DNA of 63,478 nucleotides, counting the filler, from an uncultured Methanosarcinales archaeon (GTDB taxonomy: Archaea; Nanobdellota; Nanobdellia; Woesearchaeales; GW2011-AR9): the NCBI GenBank assembly GCA_964434885.1. It is 3 parts of 3 records of this genome, joined end to end, with 100 filler letters (N's around TTAATTAATTAA, not from the genome) between each part and the next. Parts side by side here need not be neighbours in the genome. Positions count along the whole stretch, not along the records: positions 13,713 to 40,589 come from CAYSWQ010000008.1; 2 more parts are not named here. The stretch is one strand, 5' to 3'. Shown piece after piece: positions 3 to 40,482 of the stretch. Positions within the stretch are counted from its first letter, which is position 1. Each line of letters begins with the position of its first letter. A program made the position numbers and the translations under genes. Under the pieces are notes generated by a model that saw nothing but the letters and a program-made list of their open reading frames with translations, was not told the origin of the DNA and did not search any database.

Positions 3-251
3 AAAAAGAAACCAGTTAAAAGAAAATCACCAAAAAGAGTGAAGGCTGGTAAGAAGGCAGCTCGAACTAAAGCACATAAAAAGAATGTTCGGAAAGCAGC
101 CGGTAAGAAGGCAGCAGCAACTAAAAAGAGAAAAAAAGCAGTTCGGAAAGCAGCCGGTAAGAAAGCAGCTCGAACCAGAAAAAGAAAAACTGCAGTGAGA
201 AGAAAAGCTGGTAAGAAGGCAGCAGTAACTCGAAAGAAAAACAAAAGATAA
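3..251 (+). CDS. Histone H1-like Lys/Arg/Ala-rich basic protein (5' end outside window)
   Basis: Frame is open from nt 3 (KKKPVKRKSPKRVKAGKKAART...). Four AGKKAAxT(K/R) repeats, extremely basic. Confidence 0.7.
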   Translation, partial: KKKPVKRKSPKRVKAGKKAARTKAHKKNVRKAAGKKAAATKKRKKAVRKAAGKKAARTRKRKTAVRRKAGKKAAVTRKKNKR

Positions 252-37561: not shown

Positions 37562-37646
37562 GCCCTTGTCGTCTAGTGGATAGGACGCAAGCTTGCGGAA
37601 TGATTGTGAAAAGCTTGTAACCGGGGTTCAAATCCTCGCAAGGGCA
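37562..37646 (+). tRNA. tRNA-Arg(GCG) with a 13-nt canonical (37/38) intron at 37599-37611
   Basis: Acceptor GCCCTTG/CAAGGGC, D arm GTCT..GGAC, anticodon stem CAAGC/GCTTG around TT-GCG-G[AATGATTGTGAAA]A, T arm CGGGG-TTCAAAT-CCTCG; CCA not encoded. Confidence 0.93.
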
Positions 37647-37743
37647 ATTTGTTACTATGGTGTAGTATGTAAACTAAAAATTTATAAAGGAATTTAACTT
37701 TGATTGTAAATGGTGGTTTTCTAAAGGTGTTTTGGATAGGAAT

Positions 37744-38583
37744 ATGCCTAGAAAAAAACATAACATTACACCTGAAATTATTGAACAAGTTAGAGCAATG
37801 TATGATGAAGTAGATGATAATGGGAAAAAAGTTTGGTCTCAAAGAAGGTTGGCTAAATATTTGAGGTTACCAAGAACATATATATCTGCATTTGTAAACG
37901 GTTTTGCATCACCACATGAATACCGAACACATTTAGCTAAAAAAAGGGGTTTTGCATCACTTACAGAATACCGAACACATCTAGCTAAAGAAAAAGGTTT
38001 TGCATCAAGACATGAATATCAAACACATTTAGCTAAAGAAAATGGCTTTCCATCACTTACTGAATACCAAACAGATTTGGCTAAAGAAAAAGGTTTTGCA
38101 TCACCACATGAATACCGAACACATCTAGCTAGGGAAAAAGGAGAAGAAGAACAATTTTTACTGAAAAAAAGATTACGTTTTAGTTTAGGGGACGTATTAA
38201 AAAGGTACACTTTAGATGGTAAGGTTCAATCTGCTCGTGAATATGGGATAGATTACTCAACAATTTGTGAATCTTTAGAAGAAGAAGCAAAAGAAGTTCA
38301 TGGTAAAACTTTGGAAGACATGAGAGAAGAGGGGTATCATGTTGACCATATTATCCCCGTAAGTTTTTTTGATTTAGAAAACCCAGAAGAAGTTAGGAGA
38401 TGTTATCATCCAAGTAATCTTAGATGGTTACCAGGGAGAGAAAATATGAGTAGAAGTAATCGTTTTAGAGAGGAAGATTTAGAGGTATTAGTAAGCATAC
38501 CTATGGCAGTATTTCCTGAACAAATGATGGGTTGTGGAGAATTATTACAAAAATATCCTCATTACTTTGTTCATACCACATAA
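37744..38583 (+). CDS. HTH + 5x16-aa repeat + HNH endonuclease, paralog 1
   Basis: WSQRRLAKYLRLPRTYIS HTH-like segment; GFxSxxEYxTHLAKxx repeats; YHVDHIIP...CYHPSNLRWL...ENMSRSN. Confidence 0.85.
   Translation: MPRKKHNITPEIIEQVRAMYDEVDDNGKKVWSQRRLAKYLRLPRTYISAFVNGFASPHEYRTHLAKKRGFASLTEYRTHLAKEKGFASRHEYQTHLAKENGFPSLTEYQTDLAKEKGFASPHEYRTHLAREKGEEEQFLLKKRLRFSLGDVLKRYTLDGKVQSAREYGIDYSTICESLEEEAKEVHGKTLEDMREEGYHVDHIIPVSFFDLENPEEVRRCYHPSNLRWLPGRENMSRSNRFREEDLEVLVSIPMAVFPEQMMGCGELLQKYPHYFVHTT
37900..38139 (+). repeat. Intragenic 48-bp tandem repeat x5
   Basis: Unit GGTTTTGCATCACCACATGAATACCGAACACATTTAGCTAAAAAAAGG and variants. Confidence 0.95.
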
Positions 38584-38710
38584 AAATCAAGTTAAGTTAG
38601 TTAAATTTGGCAGTGAACCTTTTTGGTCAAATCCTCGCAAGGGCAAATTATTACTTTTATGTAGTGAATTAATAGAAAGTTTTATAAATGCGTTTCTTTT
38701 AATCTCAATT

Positions 38711-39289
38711 ATGTTACTTAAAGCATACCAAAAAGCATTAGGAGATGAAAAACAAAGACAACCTTTCTTGGATTTAATTACTGAACAAGGAATTCCAAAA
38801 TATGTTAAAAAAATAATTTATCAAGATGAAGACAAAGGTAAAGACATTTATAGGTCTCTTATGGGTGTTGTTTGTAACCCTCTTGCTTTATTACATATCC
38901 CTAAAACTTCTTCAACAATAAAGGTATATCCTTTTTCTTTTTCTGGACAAATACATTGTAATTTGGATGATTTTCTTTCAACTTTAAAAGACCATGAATA
39001 TATTCATGCTAGAGAACATTATTTTACTCCAAACAATATAGGATATTCTATTGCGGCAAATATTTATTTACGTTTAAGAAAATTTGGTGTGGATTATCAT
39101 TTTAGTAATGAGATGTGGATACAAGCTGCAGAACAGGAATTAAGAGCATGTAATAATCAAATTGAAACGTTTCCAGAAAGAAATTGTTCTGATAAATTCA
39201 GAAAGTGGGTTTTTGATCGAAGAAGAGATAATGAAAGAGAAATAGAATCACAATTAAGTTTAATAGCAAAAAGAAAAAAAGAAGAGTGA
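38711..39289 (+). CDS. Hypothetical protein with HExxH zincin-like motif
   Basis: DHEYIHARE...EQELRA. Start placed at MLLKAY, about 22 nt after TTTATAAA. Confidence 0.65.
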   Translation: MLLKAYQKALGDEKQRQPFLDLITEQGIPKYVKKIIYQDEDKGKDIYRSLMGVVCNPLALLHIPKTSSTIKVYPFSFSGQIHCNLDDFLSTLKDHEYIHAREHYFTPNNIGYSIAANIYLRLRKFGVDYHFSNEMWIQAAEQELRACNNQIETFPERNCSDKFRKWVFDRRRDNEREIESQLSLIAKRKKEE

Positions 39290-39390
39290 ACTTTTTTTAG
39301 TTAAATTATTTTGATGACAATTAAATTTATAAAAAAGAGCTAATTATTAATTGATAGGGTGGTTTTTCTAAAGGAGTTTTGGATAGGAAT

Positions 39391-40482
39391 ATGCCTAGAA
39401 AAAAACATAATGTTACACCTGAACTTATTGAAAAAGTTAGGGCGATGTACGAAGAAGTAGATGATAAAGGTAAGAAGGTTTGGTCTCAAAAAAGATTAAG
39501 TGAACATTTAGGATTACCAAAACAATATATAACTGCATTTGTAAATGGTTTTGAATCTCATAGTGAATATAGGACTCATAAAAATAAACAGAATGGTTTT
39601 TCATCTTATACAGATTATTTAACTCATTTAGCTAAGAAAAATGGTTTTTCATCACCACATGAATATCGACAACATATGGCTAGGAAAAATGGTTTTACAT
39701 CAGAAACTCAATATCGGATTCATCTAGCTCAAGAAAATGGTTTTACATCAATATATGAACGTAGACTTCACCAAATTGGTAAGAGGGGTTTTAATTCATT
39801 TGGTGAATATCAAACTCATTTGGTAAAGAAGAAAGGTTGTTCATCATCACATGAATATCGTACTCTTCTAGCTCAAGAAAAAGGTTTTGAATCAACATAT
39901 AGTTATCAAGTTCATCTAATTCAAAATAGTATTTTTCCATCAATGCATAGTTACTTAGATCATTTAGCTAAAAATAATGGTTTTTCATCAGTATATGAAT
40001 ATCAACTCCATTTAATTAAAAAGAAAGGTTTTAAATCATATTCAGAATACCGATTTTATCTAGCTAGTAAGAAAGGTCTTGAAGATATTGTCAGATTAAC
40101 AAAAACATTAAGAAATAATTTTAATCGAGCATTAAAAAAATATACTTCCACTGGTAAAATTCAATCTGCTAGCAAGTATGGGATTGATTATTTAGCAATT
40201 TGTGAATCTTTAGAAGAAGAAGCAAGGCAAGTTTATGGTAAATCTATTAGTGAGATGAGAGAAGAAAAGTATCATGTAGATCATATTATTCCAGTAAGTT
40301 TTTATGGTTTAGAAGACCCAGAAGAAGTTAGAAGATGTTATCATCCTAGTAATCTTAGGTGGTTATCTGGAGAAGAAAATATGAGTAGAGGCAATAGTTT
40401 TAGAGCAGAAGATTTAGAAGTGTTGGTTAATTTACCAGTGGAAATTAATCCAAAAAAATGGCTTGCTGAATTGTGGCAGTGA
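39391..40482 (+). CDS. HTH + 11x16-aa repeat + HNH endonuclease, paralog 2
   Basis: Same N-terminal and HNH domains as 37744-38583, with 11 repeats. Confidence 0.85.
   Translation: MPRKKHNVTPELIEKVRAMYEEVDDKGKKVWSQKRLSEHLGLPKQYITAFVNGFESHSEYRTHKNKQNGFSSYTDYLTHLAKKNGFSSPHEYRQHMARKNGFTSETQYRIHLAQENGFTSIYERRLHQIGKRGFNSFGEYQTHLVKKKGCSSSHEYRTLLAQEKGFESTYSYQVHLIQNSIFPSMHSYLDHLAKNNGFSSVYEYQLHLIKKKGFKSYSEYRFYLASKKGLEDIVRLTKTLRNNFNRALKKYTSTGKIQSASKYGIDYLAICESLEEEARQVYGKSISEMREEKYHVDHIIPVSFYGLEDPEEVRRCYHPSNLRWLSGEENMSRGNSFRAEDLEVLVNLPVEINPKKWLAELWQ
39547..40074 (+). repeat. Intragenic 48-bp tandem repeat x11 (diverged)
   Basis: Exact 16-codon periodicity, from GFESHSEYRTHKNKQN to GFKSYSEYRFYLASKK. 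Confidence 0.92.

What the first reader, a model, noticed from the sequence alone, without database searches (positions are those of the whole stretch)
37744..40482. Candidate modular repeat-guided nuclease family: HTH + variable 16-aa repeat array + HNH
Seen in sequence: two paralogs share a near-identical N-terminal HTH-like region and C-terminal HNH domain (YHVDHIIP...CYHPSNLRWL..EN) but carry 5 vs 11 exact 48-bp repeats between them. The consensus is G-F-x-S-[X-X]-E-Y-x-x-H-L-A-K-x-x. The scaffold (G1,F2,S4,E7,Y8,H11,L12, basic end) is largely fixed, while the pair after Ser varies: PH,LT,RH,LT,PH in copy 1 and HS,YT,PH,ET,IY,FG,SH,TY,MH,VY,YS in copy 2. Copy 1 repeats 1/5 and 2/4 reuse the same pairs, suggesting unit shuffling. 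Established knowledge: TALE, PPR and zinc-finger arrays read nucleic acid with a constant scaffold plus variable residues. Inference: this may be a natural TALEN-like architecture whose specificity changes by repeat gain, loss or exchange. I do not recognise this repeat as a named family, but could not search.
Basis: partly seen in the sequence, partly recalled or inferred. Interest (0 to 1): 0.9.

Follow-up and report, generated by a model that had tools for sequence, protein, structure and literature searches.

The report
Archaeal HNH nucleases with 16-residue repeat arrays
Two neighbouring genes in a tiny marine archaeon encode DNA-cutting enzymes whose front half is a chain of 5 or 11 short helical units of an undescribed type that evolves the way programmable DNA-reading repeats do, though DNA reading itself is untested.

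Summary
Two paralogous genes (37744-38583 and 39391-40482) each encode an N-terminal HTH, then 5 or 11 in-phase 16-aa units (GFxSxxEYxxHLAKxx), then an intact HNH nuclease. "Near-identical" flanks is overstated: the N-terminus is 39/52 identical and the C-terminal core 83/126.

The unit matches no curated family or solved fold. AlphaFold2 models each unit as a Ser-capped 11-residue helix plus a 5-residue turn.

The same unit occurs in 45 of 163 retrieved proteins. It is always joined to DNA-related domains: XRE HTH, sigma-70 region 4, TFIIB, or other HNH domains.

Within arrays the scaffold is homogenised. In four arrays only 1-3% of same-residue codon pairs differ synonymously. Codons 5, 9 and 6 nevertheless differ by 1.0-1.6 nt per pair. 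Near-identical genes differ by 3-unit block indels. This resembles TALE evolution, but three positions vary rather than two, and 109 distinct diresidues argue against a simple code.

The genes look mobile. They are sporadic, and copy 1 lies between a tRNA and a repeat of its 3' end.

Best reading: homing-type nucleases with a new modular array that probably contacts DNA. DNA binding, a code and cleavage are all untested.

The parts
37562..37646 (+). tRNA gene with a 16-nt insertion in the anticodon loop region (archaeal-type intron). By eye the anticodon reads GCG (Arg); this is unverified.
   Evidence: Rfam RF00005, 51.8 bits, E 3e-8. ARAGORN found no tRNA in the window.
37628..37683 (+). Left copy of a 56-nt direct repeat: the last 20 nt of the tRNA plus its downstream flank.
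   Evidence: the repeat finder family D4: 77% identity over 56 nt, first 20 nt exact, spacing 999 bp. The 22-nt tRNA 3' end occurs only twice in the 1.07-Mb genome, and the reversed control gave 0.
37712..37763 (+). Conserved leader plus first codons of copy 1. It is more conserved between the paralogs than the coding sequence.
   Evidence: 51/52 identical plus 1 indel against 39358-39410. The genes overall are 76-81% identical.
37744..38583 (+). Copy 1 CDS, 279 aa from the ATG (283 aa from TTG at 37732): HTH + 5 units + HNH.
   Evidence: A 99%-identical protein, P0001, is present in the public collection.
37744..37899 (+). Copy 1 N-terminal HTH domain (residues 1-52).
   Evidence: Weak Pfam hits below cut-off: HTH_32 E 0.004, HTH_3 E 0.008. 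In the copy-2 model the homologous residues 1-55 match the HTHs of Tc3, CENP-B and Hin at Z 4.6-3.3. The family profile aligns to lambda repressor and HipB HTHs at E 0.27-1.
37900..38139 (+). Copy 1 array: 5 units of 48 bp / 16 aa (PH, LT, RH, LT, PH).
   Evidence: Population SNPs at 38074 (unit 4 codon 11, D>Y) and 38104 (unit 5 codon 5, P>T).
38140..38583 (+). Copy 1 linker plus HNH (His-Me finger) nuclease domain. Catalytic core at 38335-38454 (YHVDHIIP ... NLRWL ... EN).
   Evidence: phrog_1035 'endonuclease VII' E 2.7e-7, phrog_59 and phrog_826 'HNH endonuclease'. Motif coordinates.
38627..38682 (+). Right copy of the 56-nt direct repeat (partial tRNA 3' end plus flank).
38711..39289 (+). 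Intervening ORF of 192 aa from the ATG, with no family match. It contains an HEYIH (HExxH-like) motif and is sporadic among relatives.
   Evidence: No Pfam, NCBIfam, PHROG or PADLOC hit. Found in 4 of 61 genomes including the window's own.
39358..39410 (+). Conserved leader plus first codons of copy 2.
39391..40482 (+). Copy 2 CDS, 363 aa from the ATG (367 aa from TTG at 39379): HTH + 11 units + HNH. It ends 107 bp before the end of contig C8.
39547..40074 (+). Copy 2 array: 11 units of 48 bp / 16 aa.
   Evidence: In the AF2 models each unit is an 11-residue helix (positions 5-15) plus a 5-residue turn, with pLDDT about 75-93.
40075..40482 (+). Copy 2 linker plus HNH domain. Catalytic core at 40270-40389.
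   Evidence: phrog_1035 E 4.2e-9. AF2 strands 294-298 and 322-326 followed by helix 327-331. VIA matches: Vvn-type endonuclease I Z 5.2, McrA Z 4.0, IscB HNH Z 4.3, GVE2 HNH Z 3.8.

Best explanation
These are two paralogous, probably mobile (homing-type, free-standing) HNH/His-Me-finger nuclease genes in a small marine archaeal (DPANN-like) genome.

Each protein has three parts.
1. An N-terminal helix-turn-helix anchor.
2. A chain of 16-residue units (5 in copy 1, 11 in copy 2). Each unit is a Ser-capped 11-residue helix followed by a basic-x-G-F-x turn.
3. A C-terminal nuclease with an intact H...N...N motif.

The array is a previously uncurated module. In nature it is always joined to DNA-binding or DNA-cutting domains.

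Proposed mechanism (inferred, not shown):
- The HTH docks on DNA.
- The basic array lies along the duplex and adds contacts through the first, second and fifth residues of each helix (unit positions 5, 6 and 9). These positions differ from unit to unit and are kept different while the rest of the unit is homogenised.
- The number of units sets the length of the footprint, and so where the nuclease cuts relative to the HTH site.
- Gain, loss and exchange of unit blocks retarget the protein.

Shown: the anatomy, the family, the evolutionary pattern and the sporadic distribution. Inferred: DNA contact by the array, sequence dependence, cleavage and mobility.
For: Anatomy.
- AF2 gives one helix per unit. 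pLDDT is 73 for the whole protein and 85 for the array alone.

Nuclease.
- phrog_1035 E 4e-9.
- A ββα-type strand-strand-helix element (E294-298, E322-326, H327-331) is modelled around the conserved motifs.
- VIA matches His-Me nucleases at Z 3.8-5.2. BFVD matches the C-terminal domain to giant-virus and phage HNH or 'intron encoded endonuclease' proteins, best E 3.5e-4.
- The motifs are intact in both copies.

DNA-related company of the array.
- Of the 163 proteins fetched, 45 carry at least 3 units.
- Their other domains are XRE HTH_3 (for example P0013, E 3e-12), Sigma70_r4 (P0016, P0041), a TFIIB repeat (P0019, 45.7 bits), classical HNH PF01844 (P0141), and N-terminal HTH_23/HTH_7-like domains.
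- The arrays are basic, pI 9.5-9.6.

Evolutionary signature.
- Within-protein mismatch is highest at positions 5 (0.85), 9 (0.81) and 6 (0.76), measured on 44 proteins and 272 units. In the 12 HNH-family proteins the values are 0.81, 0.74 and 0.68, while most other positions are at or below 0.34.
- Scaffold positions 3, 10, 14, 15 and 16 are protein-specific: same-position coupling between neighbouring units has z 8-22. Positions 5 and 6 show no such coupling.
- At DNA level, in 8 arrays, codons 5, 9 and 6 differ by 1.57, 1.12 and 1.04 nt per unit pair.
- Synonymous differences among same-residue codon pairs are only 1.3-3% in four arrays (L004, L005, L006, L027). They are 10-24% in the other four (W1, W2, L026, L031).
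- P0004 and P0007 are identical through the N-terminal domain and the first five units (residues 1-135) and differ at 5 of 210 C-terminal residues. Their arrays differ by 3-unit blocks, and L005 carries both blocks.
- Two of the three credible strain SNPs in 3.2 kb are non-synonymous changes inside the copy 1 array, one of them at position 5.

Mobility.
- Only these 2 copies exist in the 1.07-Mb genome.
- No full-length relative was found in 60 related genomes or in the 185,579-species genome collection.
- Labelled relatives come from both an archaeal (Woesearchaeota) MAG and a bacterial (Magasanikbacteria) MAG.
- Tandem family copies also occur in L004.
- Copy 1 is bracketed by a 56-nt direct repeat that starts with the tRNA 3' end.
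Against: - No experiment or co-fold with DNA was possible, so DNA contact by the array is inferred from domain company and composition only.
The geometry (rise and twist per unit, and which face points outward) is unknown.
- The array-only model has no structural analogue (best VIA Z 3.0). This gives no support for any binding mode.
- Pfam HNH models score below their cut-offs.
- Variable positions 5, 6, 9, 10, 13 and 14 together form one helix face. That is also what a solvent-exposed face would look like.
- In copy 2 and in non-HNH proteins many other positions vary too.
- In the CPR-like clade, positions 12 and 16 vary as well.
- Units were defined by a regular expression that fixes positions 1, 2, 4 and 8, so their low entropy is partly by construction.
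- The DNA-level test rests on 8 arrays, some of them kin.
- No empty site lacking copy 1 was seen in 4 runs, which are contigs only. No tRNA was found next to relatives in the 20 loci scanned. Mobility and tRNA targeting therefore remain inferences.
Confidence: 0.5

Rival explanations
1. Strict TALE-like code. Each 16-aa unit reads one base, or a fixed small number of bases, through its variable residues. The array is then a programmable address and the protein a natural TALEN analogue.
For: - The scaffold is homogenised while helix-start residues are hypervariable, and multi-nucleotide codon differences persist at codons 5, 6 and 9.
- Block gain and loss occurs between near-identical genes.
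- The array is fused to nucleases and transcription-factor domains.
- Positions 5, 6 and 9 are helix positions 1, 2 and 5. These are the positions that contact bases in classical HTH recognition helices (recalled knowledge, not tested).
- Residues at these positions (R, Y, H, L, T, S, N, Q, K) are typical of DNA interfaces.
Against: - 109 distinct diresidues occur in 275 units, and no small dominant set emerges beyond LT (29) and RT (12).
- Three or more positions vary, not two.
- There is no structural similarity to TALE, PPR or PUF. Foldseek gives E 0.1-1 and TM 0.12-0.15.
- No target sequence is known for any member, so no unit-to-base correlation could be tested.
- No DNA tandem repeats matching runs of identical units were found beside the genes examined.
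Confidence: 0.15
2. Passive spacer or molecular ruler. The array does not read DNA. It is a semi-rigid helical linker whose unit number sets the distance between the HTH-bound site and the second domain (nuclease or second HTH). This is analogous to the I-TevI linker (recalled).
For: - The array always sits between an N-terminal HTH and a second DNA-directed domain.
- Unit number varies from 3 to 11 or more and changes by block indels.
- The model is extended, with low pTM (0.29) and no compact fold match.
- The variable residues lie on one helix face, as expected for solvent exposure.
Against: - A passive linker does not explain why codons 5, 6 and 9 keep 1.0-1.6 nt differences per pair while synonymous sites are 97-99% identical in four arrays.
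- It does not explain why position 5 favours Y, L, R, H, I and F rather than typical linker residues.
- It does not explain why two of the three credible strain SNPs (two of six listed) are non-synonymous changes in the array.
Confidence: 0.2
3. Protein-protein or other-ligand scaffold. The variable face binds a partner protein, another copy of itself, or RNA (for example tRNA) rather than duplex DNA.
For: - Helical repeat arrays commonly mediate protein binding (general knowledge).
- Copy 1 sits next to a tRNA gene.
- The weak top Foldseek rows are designer PPR RNA binders.
Against: - The Foldseek rows are not significant.
- Every identified partner domain acts on DNA.
- No conserved neighbouring gene is shared between the loci examined.
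Confidence: 0.1

Closest known systems
Free-standing phage HNH homing endonucleases of the I-HmuI / HNH_3 type with modular DNA-binding modules (NUMOD1/NUMOD3). Recalled; the I-HmuI structure was not examined here.
   Same: - A His-Me finger nuclease with an NL(R/E)W...EN-type motif, joined to an HTH and short helical modules.
- A selfish, sporadically distributed, free-standing gene.
- PHROG families 'endonuclease VII' and 'HNH endonuclease' match.
- Pfam HNH_3 aligns to the NLRWL..EN segment.
   Different: - Domain order is reversed here (HTH first, nuclease last).
- Pfam NUMOD3 was not among the hits.
- The helical module is iterated 4 to at least 12 times in exact 16-aa phase and shows unit-to-unit hypervariability.
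- The hosts are DPANN archaea and CPR-like bacteria rather than phages. Only the HNH domain was found in the phage and viral collections.
TAL effectors and TALE-likes (RipTAL, Bat/BurrH, MOrTL). Seen only as the search listing and abstract starts of PMC4787788 and PMC5472282.
   Same: Tandem units with a homogenised scaffold and a few hypervariable residues at the start of a helix or in a loop. Arrays evolve by unit gain, loss and recombination. Unit numbers vary between paralogs.
   Different: - The unit is 16 aa with one helix, against 33-35 aa with two helices.
- Three variable positions (5, 6, 9), not two.
- 109 diresidue types in 275 units.
- No sequence or fold similarity.
- No demonstrated DNA code.
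- A natural fusion to a nuclease.
Zinc-ribbon / zinc-finger arrays fused to HNH nucleases and CapR-like repeat DNA binders. These are earlier findings e1-5783058 and e1-5468076; Xu and Gupta 2013 is cited inside those notes and was not read.
   Same: Mobile-element HNH nucleases preceded by long arrays of small repeated units with hypervariable patches. The arrays are proposed to be modular DNA-reading domains.
   Different: Those units are Cys4 zinc modules of about 24 residues. Here the units are metal-free single helices of 16 residues.
Classical helix-turn-helix motif (Cro/C1-XRE type)
   Same: - The segment L-A-K-x-x-G-F-x-S-x-x-E-Y resembles the HTH pattern A-x-x-x-G-h-S/T...h (recalled) with one extra residue in the turn.
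- The array starts inside the N-terminal HTH, directly after its third helix (...YISAFVNGF...).
- Short stretches of the array model weakly match HTH domains at Z 2.3-3.0.
   Different: - Every helix would serve as both the first and the second helix of successive motifs.
- No Pfam HTH model matches the units.
- The structural matches are too weak to establish kinship.

Membership tests
HNH / His-Me finger nuclease superfamily | ββα-metal core carrying the catalytic His (here the DH in YHVDHIIP) | tested here: met
   - The motif is present in both copies.
- AF2 models strands 294-298 and 322-326 followed by helix 327-331.
- VIA gives Z 5.2 (rmsd 3.4, 97 aligned) to Vvn-type endonuclease I, and Z 3.7-4.3 to McrA, IscB HNH and GVE2 HNH.
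- phrog_1035 E 4e-9.
HNH / His-Me finger nuclease superfamily | Curated Pfam HNH model reaches its gathering score | tested here: not met
   HNH_3 scores 14.1/11.6 bits against a cut-off of 24.8. HNH_4 scores 12.2/14.1 bits against a cut-off of 22. The domain is a divergent clade: 2370 library proteins match at E<=1e-3.
HNH / His-Me finger nuclease superfamily | Metal-dependent DNA cleavage | not testable with these tools
   Needs an enzyme assay.
Homing endonuclease (functional class) | Sporadic, mobile distribution of a free-standing gene | tested here: met
   - 2 copies in the window's genome.
- 0 full-length relatives in 60 related genomes.
- 0 in the genome-contig collection.
- Labelled relatives occur in both archaeal and bacterial MAGs.
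Homing endonuclease (functional class) | Cuts the gene-less allele at its own insertion site; an empty site exists | tested here: inconclusive
   No contig joining across copy 1 was seen in 4 marine runs, which are contigs only. The 56-nt flanking direct repeat marks an insertion but does not show homing.
TAL effector / TALE-like repeats | Two-helix repeat of about 33-35 aa with a repeat-variable diresidue at positions 12/13 | tested here: not met
   The period is exactly 16 aa with one helix per unit. No TALE Pfam hit. Foldseek and VIA did not retrieve TALE structures.
TAL effector / TALE-like repeats | One repeat reads one base | not testable with these tools
   No target is known for any member.
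NUMOD3 (PF07460) | Match to the Pfam model | tested here: not met
   Not listed at E<=1 for the two window proteins, nor at E<=0.01 for 37 relatives. HMMER filters drop most hits above about 0.1.
XRE/Cro-type or homeodomain-like HTH (N-terminal domain) | Tri-helical HTH fold and a match to an HTH model | tested here: inconclusive
   Pfam HTH_32 E 0.004 and HTH_3 E 0.008, both below their cut-offs. VIA Z 4.6-3.3 to the HTHs of Tc3, GcrA, CENP-B and Hin over residues 1-60. The family profile aligns to lambda repressor at E 0.27.

The most novel reading that the evidence does not exclude
The 16-residue GFxSxxEYxxHLAKxx unit may be the smallest natural modular DNA-reading repeat. It would act as an iterated helix-turn-helix in which each Ser-capped helix presents residues 5, 6 and 9 to successive stretches of duplex. 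Order and number of units would then spell the target. DPANN archaea and CPR bacteria would deploy this module both in mobile nucleases (natural TALEN-like enzymes) and in transcription factors (HTH-array-XRE, -sigma4, -TFIIB). Retargeting would occur by block gain, loss and exchange.
Probability: 0.2. Interest if true: 0.9.

Novelty: new variant of a known kind. Interest (0 to 1): 0.7.

Why it matters
If the array contacts DNA in a unit-wise, sequence-dependent way, it would be a new and very compact class of modular DNA-binding scaffold. Its units are 16 aa, against 28-35 aa for zinc fingers and TALEs. It also has natural nuclease and transcription-factor fusions that could be mined to work out its rules.

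Even if it is only an adjustable ruler, three things stand:
- It adds an uncurated repeat family, found in 45 of 163 proteins retrieved and probably in many of the 2370 library hits.
- The family is shared by DPANN archaea and CPR-like bacteria.
- It shows that homing-type HNH genes in these reduced genomes evolve by rapid remodelling of a repeat array.

Tried and rejected
- Homodimer prediction for copy 1: no verdict. Score 0.29, below the mark of 0.42; the controls were not run.
- ESM Atlas look-up of the array: no usable hit.
- Foldseek against PDB for the whole model and for the array alone: nothing at E<=0.001.
- VIA wide search for the array alone: best Z 3.0.
- PDB sequence search with the family profile and with P0136: nothing significant. 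My reading of the P0084/P0136 C-termini as PD-(D/E)xK-like is therefore unverified and is not used.
- Genome-contig scan: 0 of 85 candidate stretches confirmed.
- Phage records: a single weak HNH-only hit. Viral contigs: 2 HNH-only loci out of 101 pattern matches.
- PADLOC: nothing below E 0.02, so there is no link to known defence systems.
- A two-unit structural period was tested and not found. Position-5 identity is 0.20 at lag 1 and 0.22 at lag 2.
- Search for DNA tandem repeats beside array genes that could be operator arrays: only the coding 48-bp arrays and unrelated short repeats.
- tRNA genes next to relatives: none in the 20 of 21 metagenome loci scanned (L024 was not scanned).
- Empty-site joints and unit-number polymorphism in 4 marine runs: none seen, but these are contigs only. 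SNPs at 37761, 37764 and 37765 in one run look like cross-mapping of copy 2. No RNA holder was listed.
- Promoter and terminator scan: no excess over shuffles; the organism is archaeal.
- Literature: four full-text searches and a term search inside PMC5472282 (0 occurrences of HNH, archae, helix-turn-helix, endonuclease, Candidatus) found no description of this repeat. Subscription journals are not covered.
- The CheR_N Pfam hits (up to 43 bits summed) cover only profile positions 30-52. I treat them as a shared G-h-x-S-x-x-E-Y-x-x-x-L helix-cap motif, not as homology.
- First frame for the intervening ORF was wrong (error); it was corrected.


Full report
**What is there**

The window is a concatenation of contigs. 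Positions 13713-40589 are contig C8 of a 1.07-Mb, 66-contig, 92%-complete genome. The N run after 40589 is a contig boundary.

Archaeal-type UMP kinase and type II methionine aminopeptidase, together with an intron-bearing tRNA, identify a small archaeal, DPANN-like genome. Public runs that hold the stretch are marine or seawater metagenomes from 2 studies.

Two + strand ORFs, at 37744-38583 (279 aa from the ATG) and 39391-40482 (363 aa), are paralogs (BLASTP E 2e-114). Each has three parts:
- a 52-residue N-terminal domain;
- an array of 16-residue units in perfect 48-bp phase, 5 units at 37900-38139 and 11 units at 39547-40074;
- a C-terminal domain of about 130-150 residues carrying YHVDHIIP...NLRWL...EN.

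"Near-identical" flanks is an overstatement: the N-terminus is 39/52 identical and the C-terminal core 83/126. The repeats are exact in period, not in sequence. TRF gives 81% matches for copy 1 and finds only 2.6 units of copy 2.

**The domains**

The C-terminus is a divergent HNH/His-Me finger nuclease.
- phrog_1035 'endonuclease VII' scores E 4e-9 and 3e-7.
- AF2 places two strands and a helix around the motifs.
- VIA aligns residues 255-363 to Vvn-type endonuclease I (Z 5.2), McrA, IscB HNH and GVE2 HNH (Z 3.7-4.3).
- BFVD finds HNH or 'intron encoded endonuclease' proteins of giant viruses and phages, best E 3.5e-4.
- Pfam HNH_3 and HNH_4 stay below their cut-offs.
- This nuclease clade is large. 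2370 of 1.84 billion representatives match copy 2 at E<=1e-3, most of them through this domain.

The N-terminus is an HTH. Pfam gives weak HTH_32 and HTH_3 hits. VIA gives Z 3.3-4.6 to the HTHs of Tc3, CENP-B, GcrA and Hin.

**The repeat unit**

No curated family covers the unit. Pfam returns only partial CheR_N matches to profile positions 30-52, which is a shared helix-cap motif. NCBIfam, PADLOC, the PDB sequence search and the ESM Atlas give nothing.

AF2 models each unit as an 11-residue helix (unit positions 5-15) capped by Ser4, followed by a 5-residue turn (position 16, G, F, x, S). Mean pLDDT is 73 for the whole protein and 85 for the array alone (pTM 0.47).

The array-alone model has no structural analogue. 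Foldseek finds nothing at E<=0.001. The best VIA Z among 48,161 chains is 3.0, from short matches to HTH domains and the RAG1 nonamer-binding domain. I could not see coordinates, so the overall geometry is unknown.

**The family and its company**

The word-indexed search found 18 relatives.
- Ten full or partial HTH+array+HNH proteins carry 4 to 11 units. Two of them have source labels: one 'Candidatus Woesearchaeota archaeon' and one 'Candidatus Magasanikbacteria bacterium'.
- Metagenome locus L005 carries at least 12 units and is truncated at its 5' end.
- L004 holds three family genes or fragments in tandem.

Of the 163 proteins in hand, 45 carry at least 3 units. Their other domains are DNA-directed:
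- most often an N-terminal HTH_23/HTH_7-like domain plus a C-terminal XRE HTH_3;
- also Sigma70_r4 (P0016, P0041), a TFIIB repeat (P0019) and classical HNH PF01844 (P0141).

Conversely, the same nuclease domain occurs without this array behind other N-terminal regions (P0017, P0027, P0090). The arrays are basic, pI 9.5-9.6.

**How the arrays vary**

Across 275 units from 45 proteins, entropy is highest at positions 5 (3.57 bits) and 6 (3.33). Positions 10, 3 and 9 follow closely at 2.9-3.1 bits.

Splitting the variation is more informative.
- Positions 3, 10, 14, 15 and 16 are protein-specific. Same-position coupling between neighbouring units has z 8-22.
- Positions 5, 9 and 6 differ from unit to unit within a protein. 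Mismatch is 0.85, 0.81 and 0.76 over 44 proteins.
- In the 12 HNH-family proteins the values are 0.81, 0.74 and 0.68, against 0.34 or less for most other positions.

At DNA level, in 8 arrays, codons 5, 9 and 6 differ by 1.57, 1.12 and 1.04 nt per unit pair, and every other codon by 0.83 or less. Synonymous differences among same-residue codon pairs are only 1.3-3% in L004, L005, L006 and L027. They are 10% in L031, 14.5% in copy 1, 18% in L026 and 24% in copy 2.

Units are therefore homogenised, or recently duplicated, while differences at three helix-start positions are retained. Neutral drift on an exposed face does not predict this pattern.

Closely related genes remodel their arrays. P0004 and P0007 are identical through the N-terminal domain and the first five units (residues 1-135) and differ at 5 of 210 C-terminal residues. 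Their arrays differ by two 3-unit blocks, and L005 has both blocks.

Laid contigs of 4 runs listed six single-letter differences. Three (37761, 37764, 37765, one run) look like cross-mapping of copy 2. Of the other three, two are non-synonymous changes in the copy 1 array (unit 4 codon 11, D>Y; unit 5 codon 5, P>T). These are the same two differences seen in P0001.

Several observations count against a simple code:
- 109 distinct diresidues occur in 275 units;
- in the CPR-like clade, positions 12 and 16 also vary;
- in copy 2 most exposed positions vary.

No two-unit periodicity was found. The 1/5 and 2/4 similarity in copy 1 fits duplication of 96-bp blocks.

**Context and mobility**

Rfam finds a tRNA at 37562-37646 with a 16-nt intron. 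ARAGORN misses it.

The last 20 nt of the tRNA plus about 36 nt of flank recur 999 bp downstream, at 38627-38682 (77% over 56 nt). The 22-nt tRNA end occurs only at these two places in the genome. Copy 1 is therefore bracketed by a direct repeat, as an inserted cassette would be.

Both genes share a 52-nt leader-plus-start that is 51/52 identical, at 37712-37763 and 39358-39410. They also share a similar 30-nt tail after the stop codon (family D5).

Between them lies a 192-aa ORF with no family match and an HEYIH motif. It is itself sporadic: 4 of 61 genomes including the window's own.

The full architecture was not found in 60 related genomes. Two of them have HTH-array-XRE proteins and two have the nuclease domain alone. 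It was not found in the species-representative genome collection either. No empty site was seen in contigs of 4 runs, and no tRNA lies beside relatives in the 20 loci scanned.

**Interpretation**

Shown:
- a real, uncurated 16-aa single-helix repeat family;
- its constant association with DNA-directed domains;
- intact nuclease motifs;
- sporadic distribution;
- a scaffold-homogenised, helix-start-hypervariable pattern with block indels.

Inferred:
- the array lies on DNA between the HTH anchor and the nuclease;
- positions 5, 6 and 9 (helix positions 1, 2 and 5, the ones that contact bases in classical HTH recognition helices, recalled) contribute sequence preference;
- unit number sets reach.

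I rate this composite reading at about 0.5, a strict TALE-like code at about 0.15, a passive ruler at about 0.2, and a non-DNA ligand at about 0.1.

Earlier notes from this scan describe zinc-ribbon arrays fused to HNH nucleases in phages (e1-5783058, e1-5468076). They suggest that arrays of small units in front of HNH domains are a recurring design. I did not test those notes.

**Novelty**

Four full-text searches and one in-paper term search found no description of this unit. I file it as a new variant of known kinds, namely modular homing-type HNH nucleases and hypervariable tandem-repeat nucleic-acid binders. It is not a member of the TALE or NUMOD3 families, whose defining features it fails.

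Noticed in passing
window 37562-37646 and 38627-38682: An intron-bearing tRNA is found by Rfam but missed by ARAGORN. Its 3' 20 nt plus flank are duplicated 999 bp downstream, bracketing HNH copy 1. This is an att-like or insertion-scar arrangement with no integrase in sight.
   Followed up: partly
window 37712-37763 and 39358-39410: The 52 nt spanning the leader and first codons of the two paralogs are 51/52 identical, against 76-81% for the genes. This may be a shared regulatory or operator site, or a recent gene-conversion tract.
   Followed up: partly
window 38711-39289: A 192-aa ORF lies between the paralogs. It has no family match, contains an HEYIH (HExxH-like) motif, and is present in only 3 of 60 relatives.
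   Followed up: partly
L005 1300-4491: Next to a CPR-like family member lies a 1063-aa protein built of about 16 copies of a 40-aa (120-bp) repeat (DKDLEIFKDQPSTIL...). This is another unexplained repeat protein.
   Followed up: no
P0020 (310 aa): A relative has the same HTH and HNH ends but a different, shorter helical unit (GMxxYEYxKQ[RW]LAKK, about 15 aa). This suggests the array module diversifies or is replaced within the family.
   Followed up: no
P0017, P0027, P0090, L029 955-1665: The same nuclease domain is preceded by a different lysine-rich repeat with a recurring Y-x3-N-x-E motif in place of the GFxS array.
   Followed up: no
window 48-223: A 54-bp tandem repeat (3.3 copies, 78% matches) lies at the very start of the window, in another contig.
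   Followed up: no
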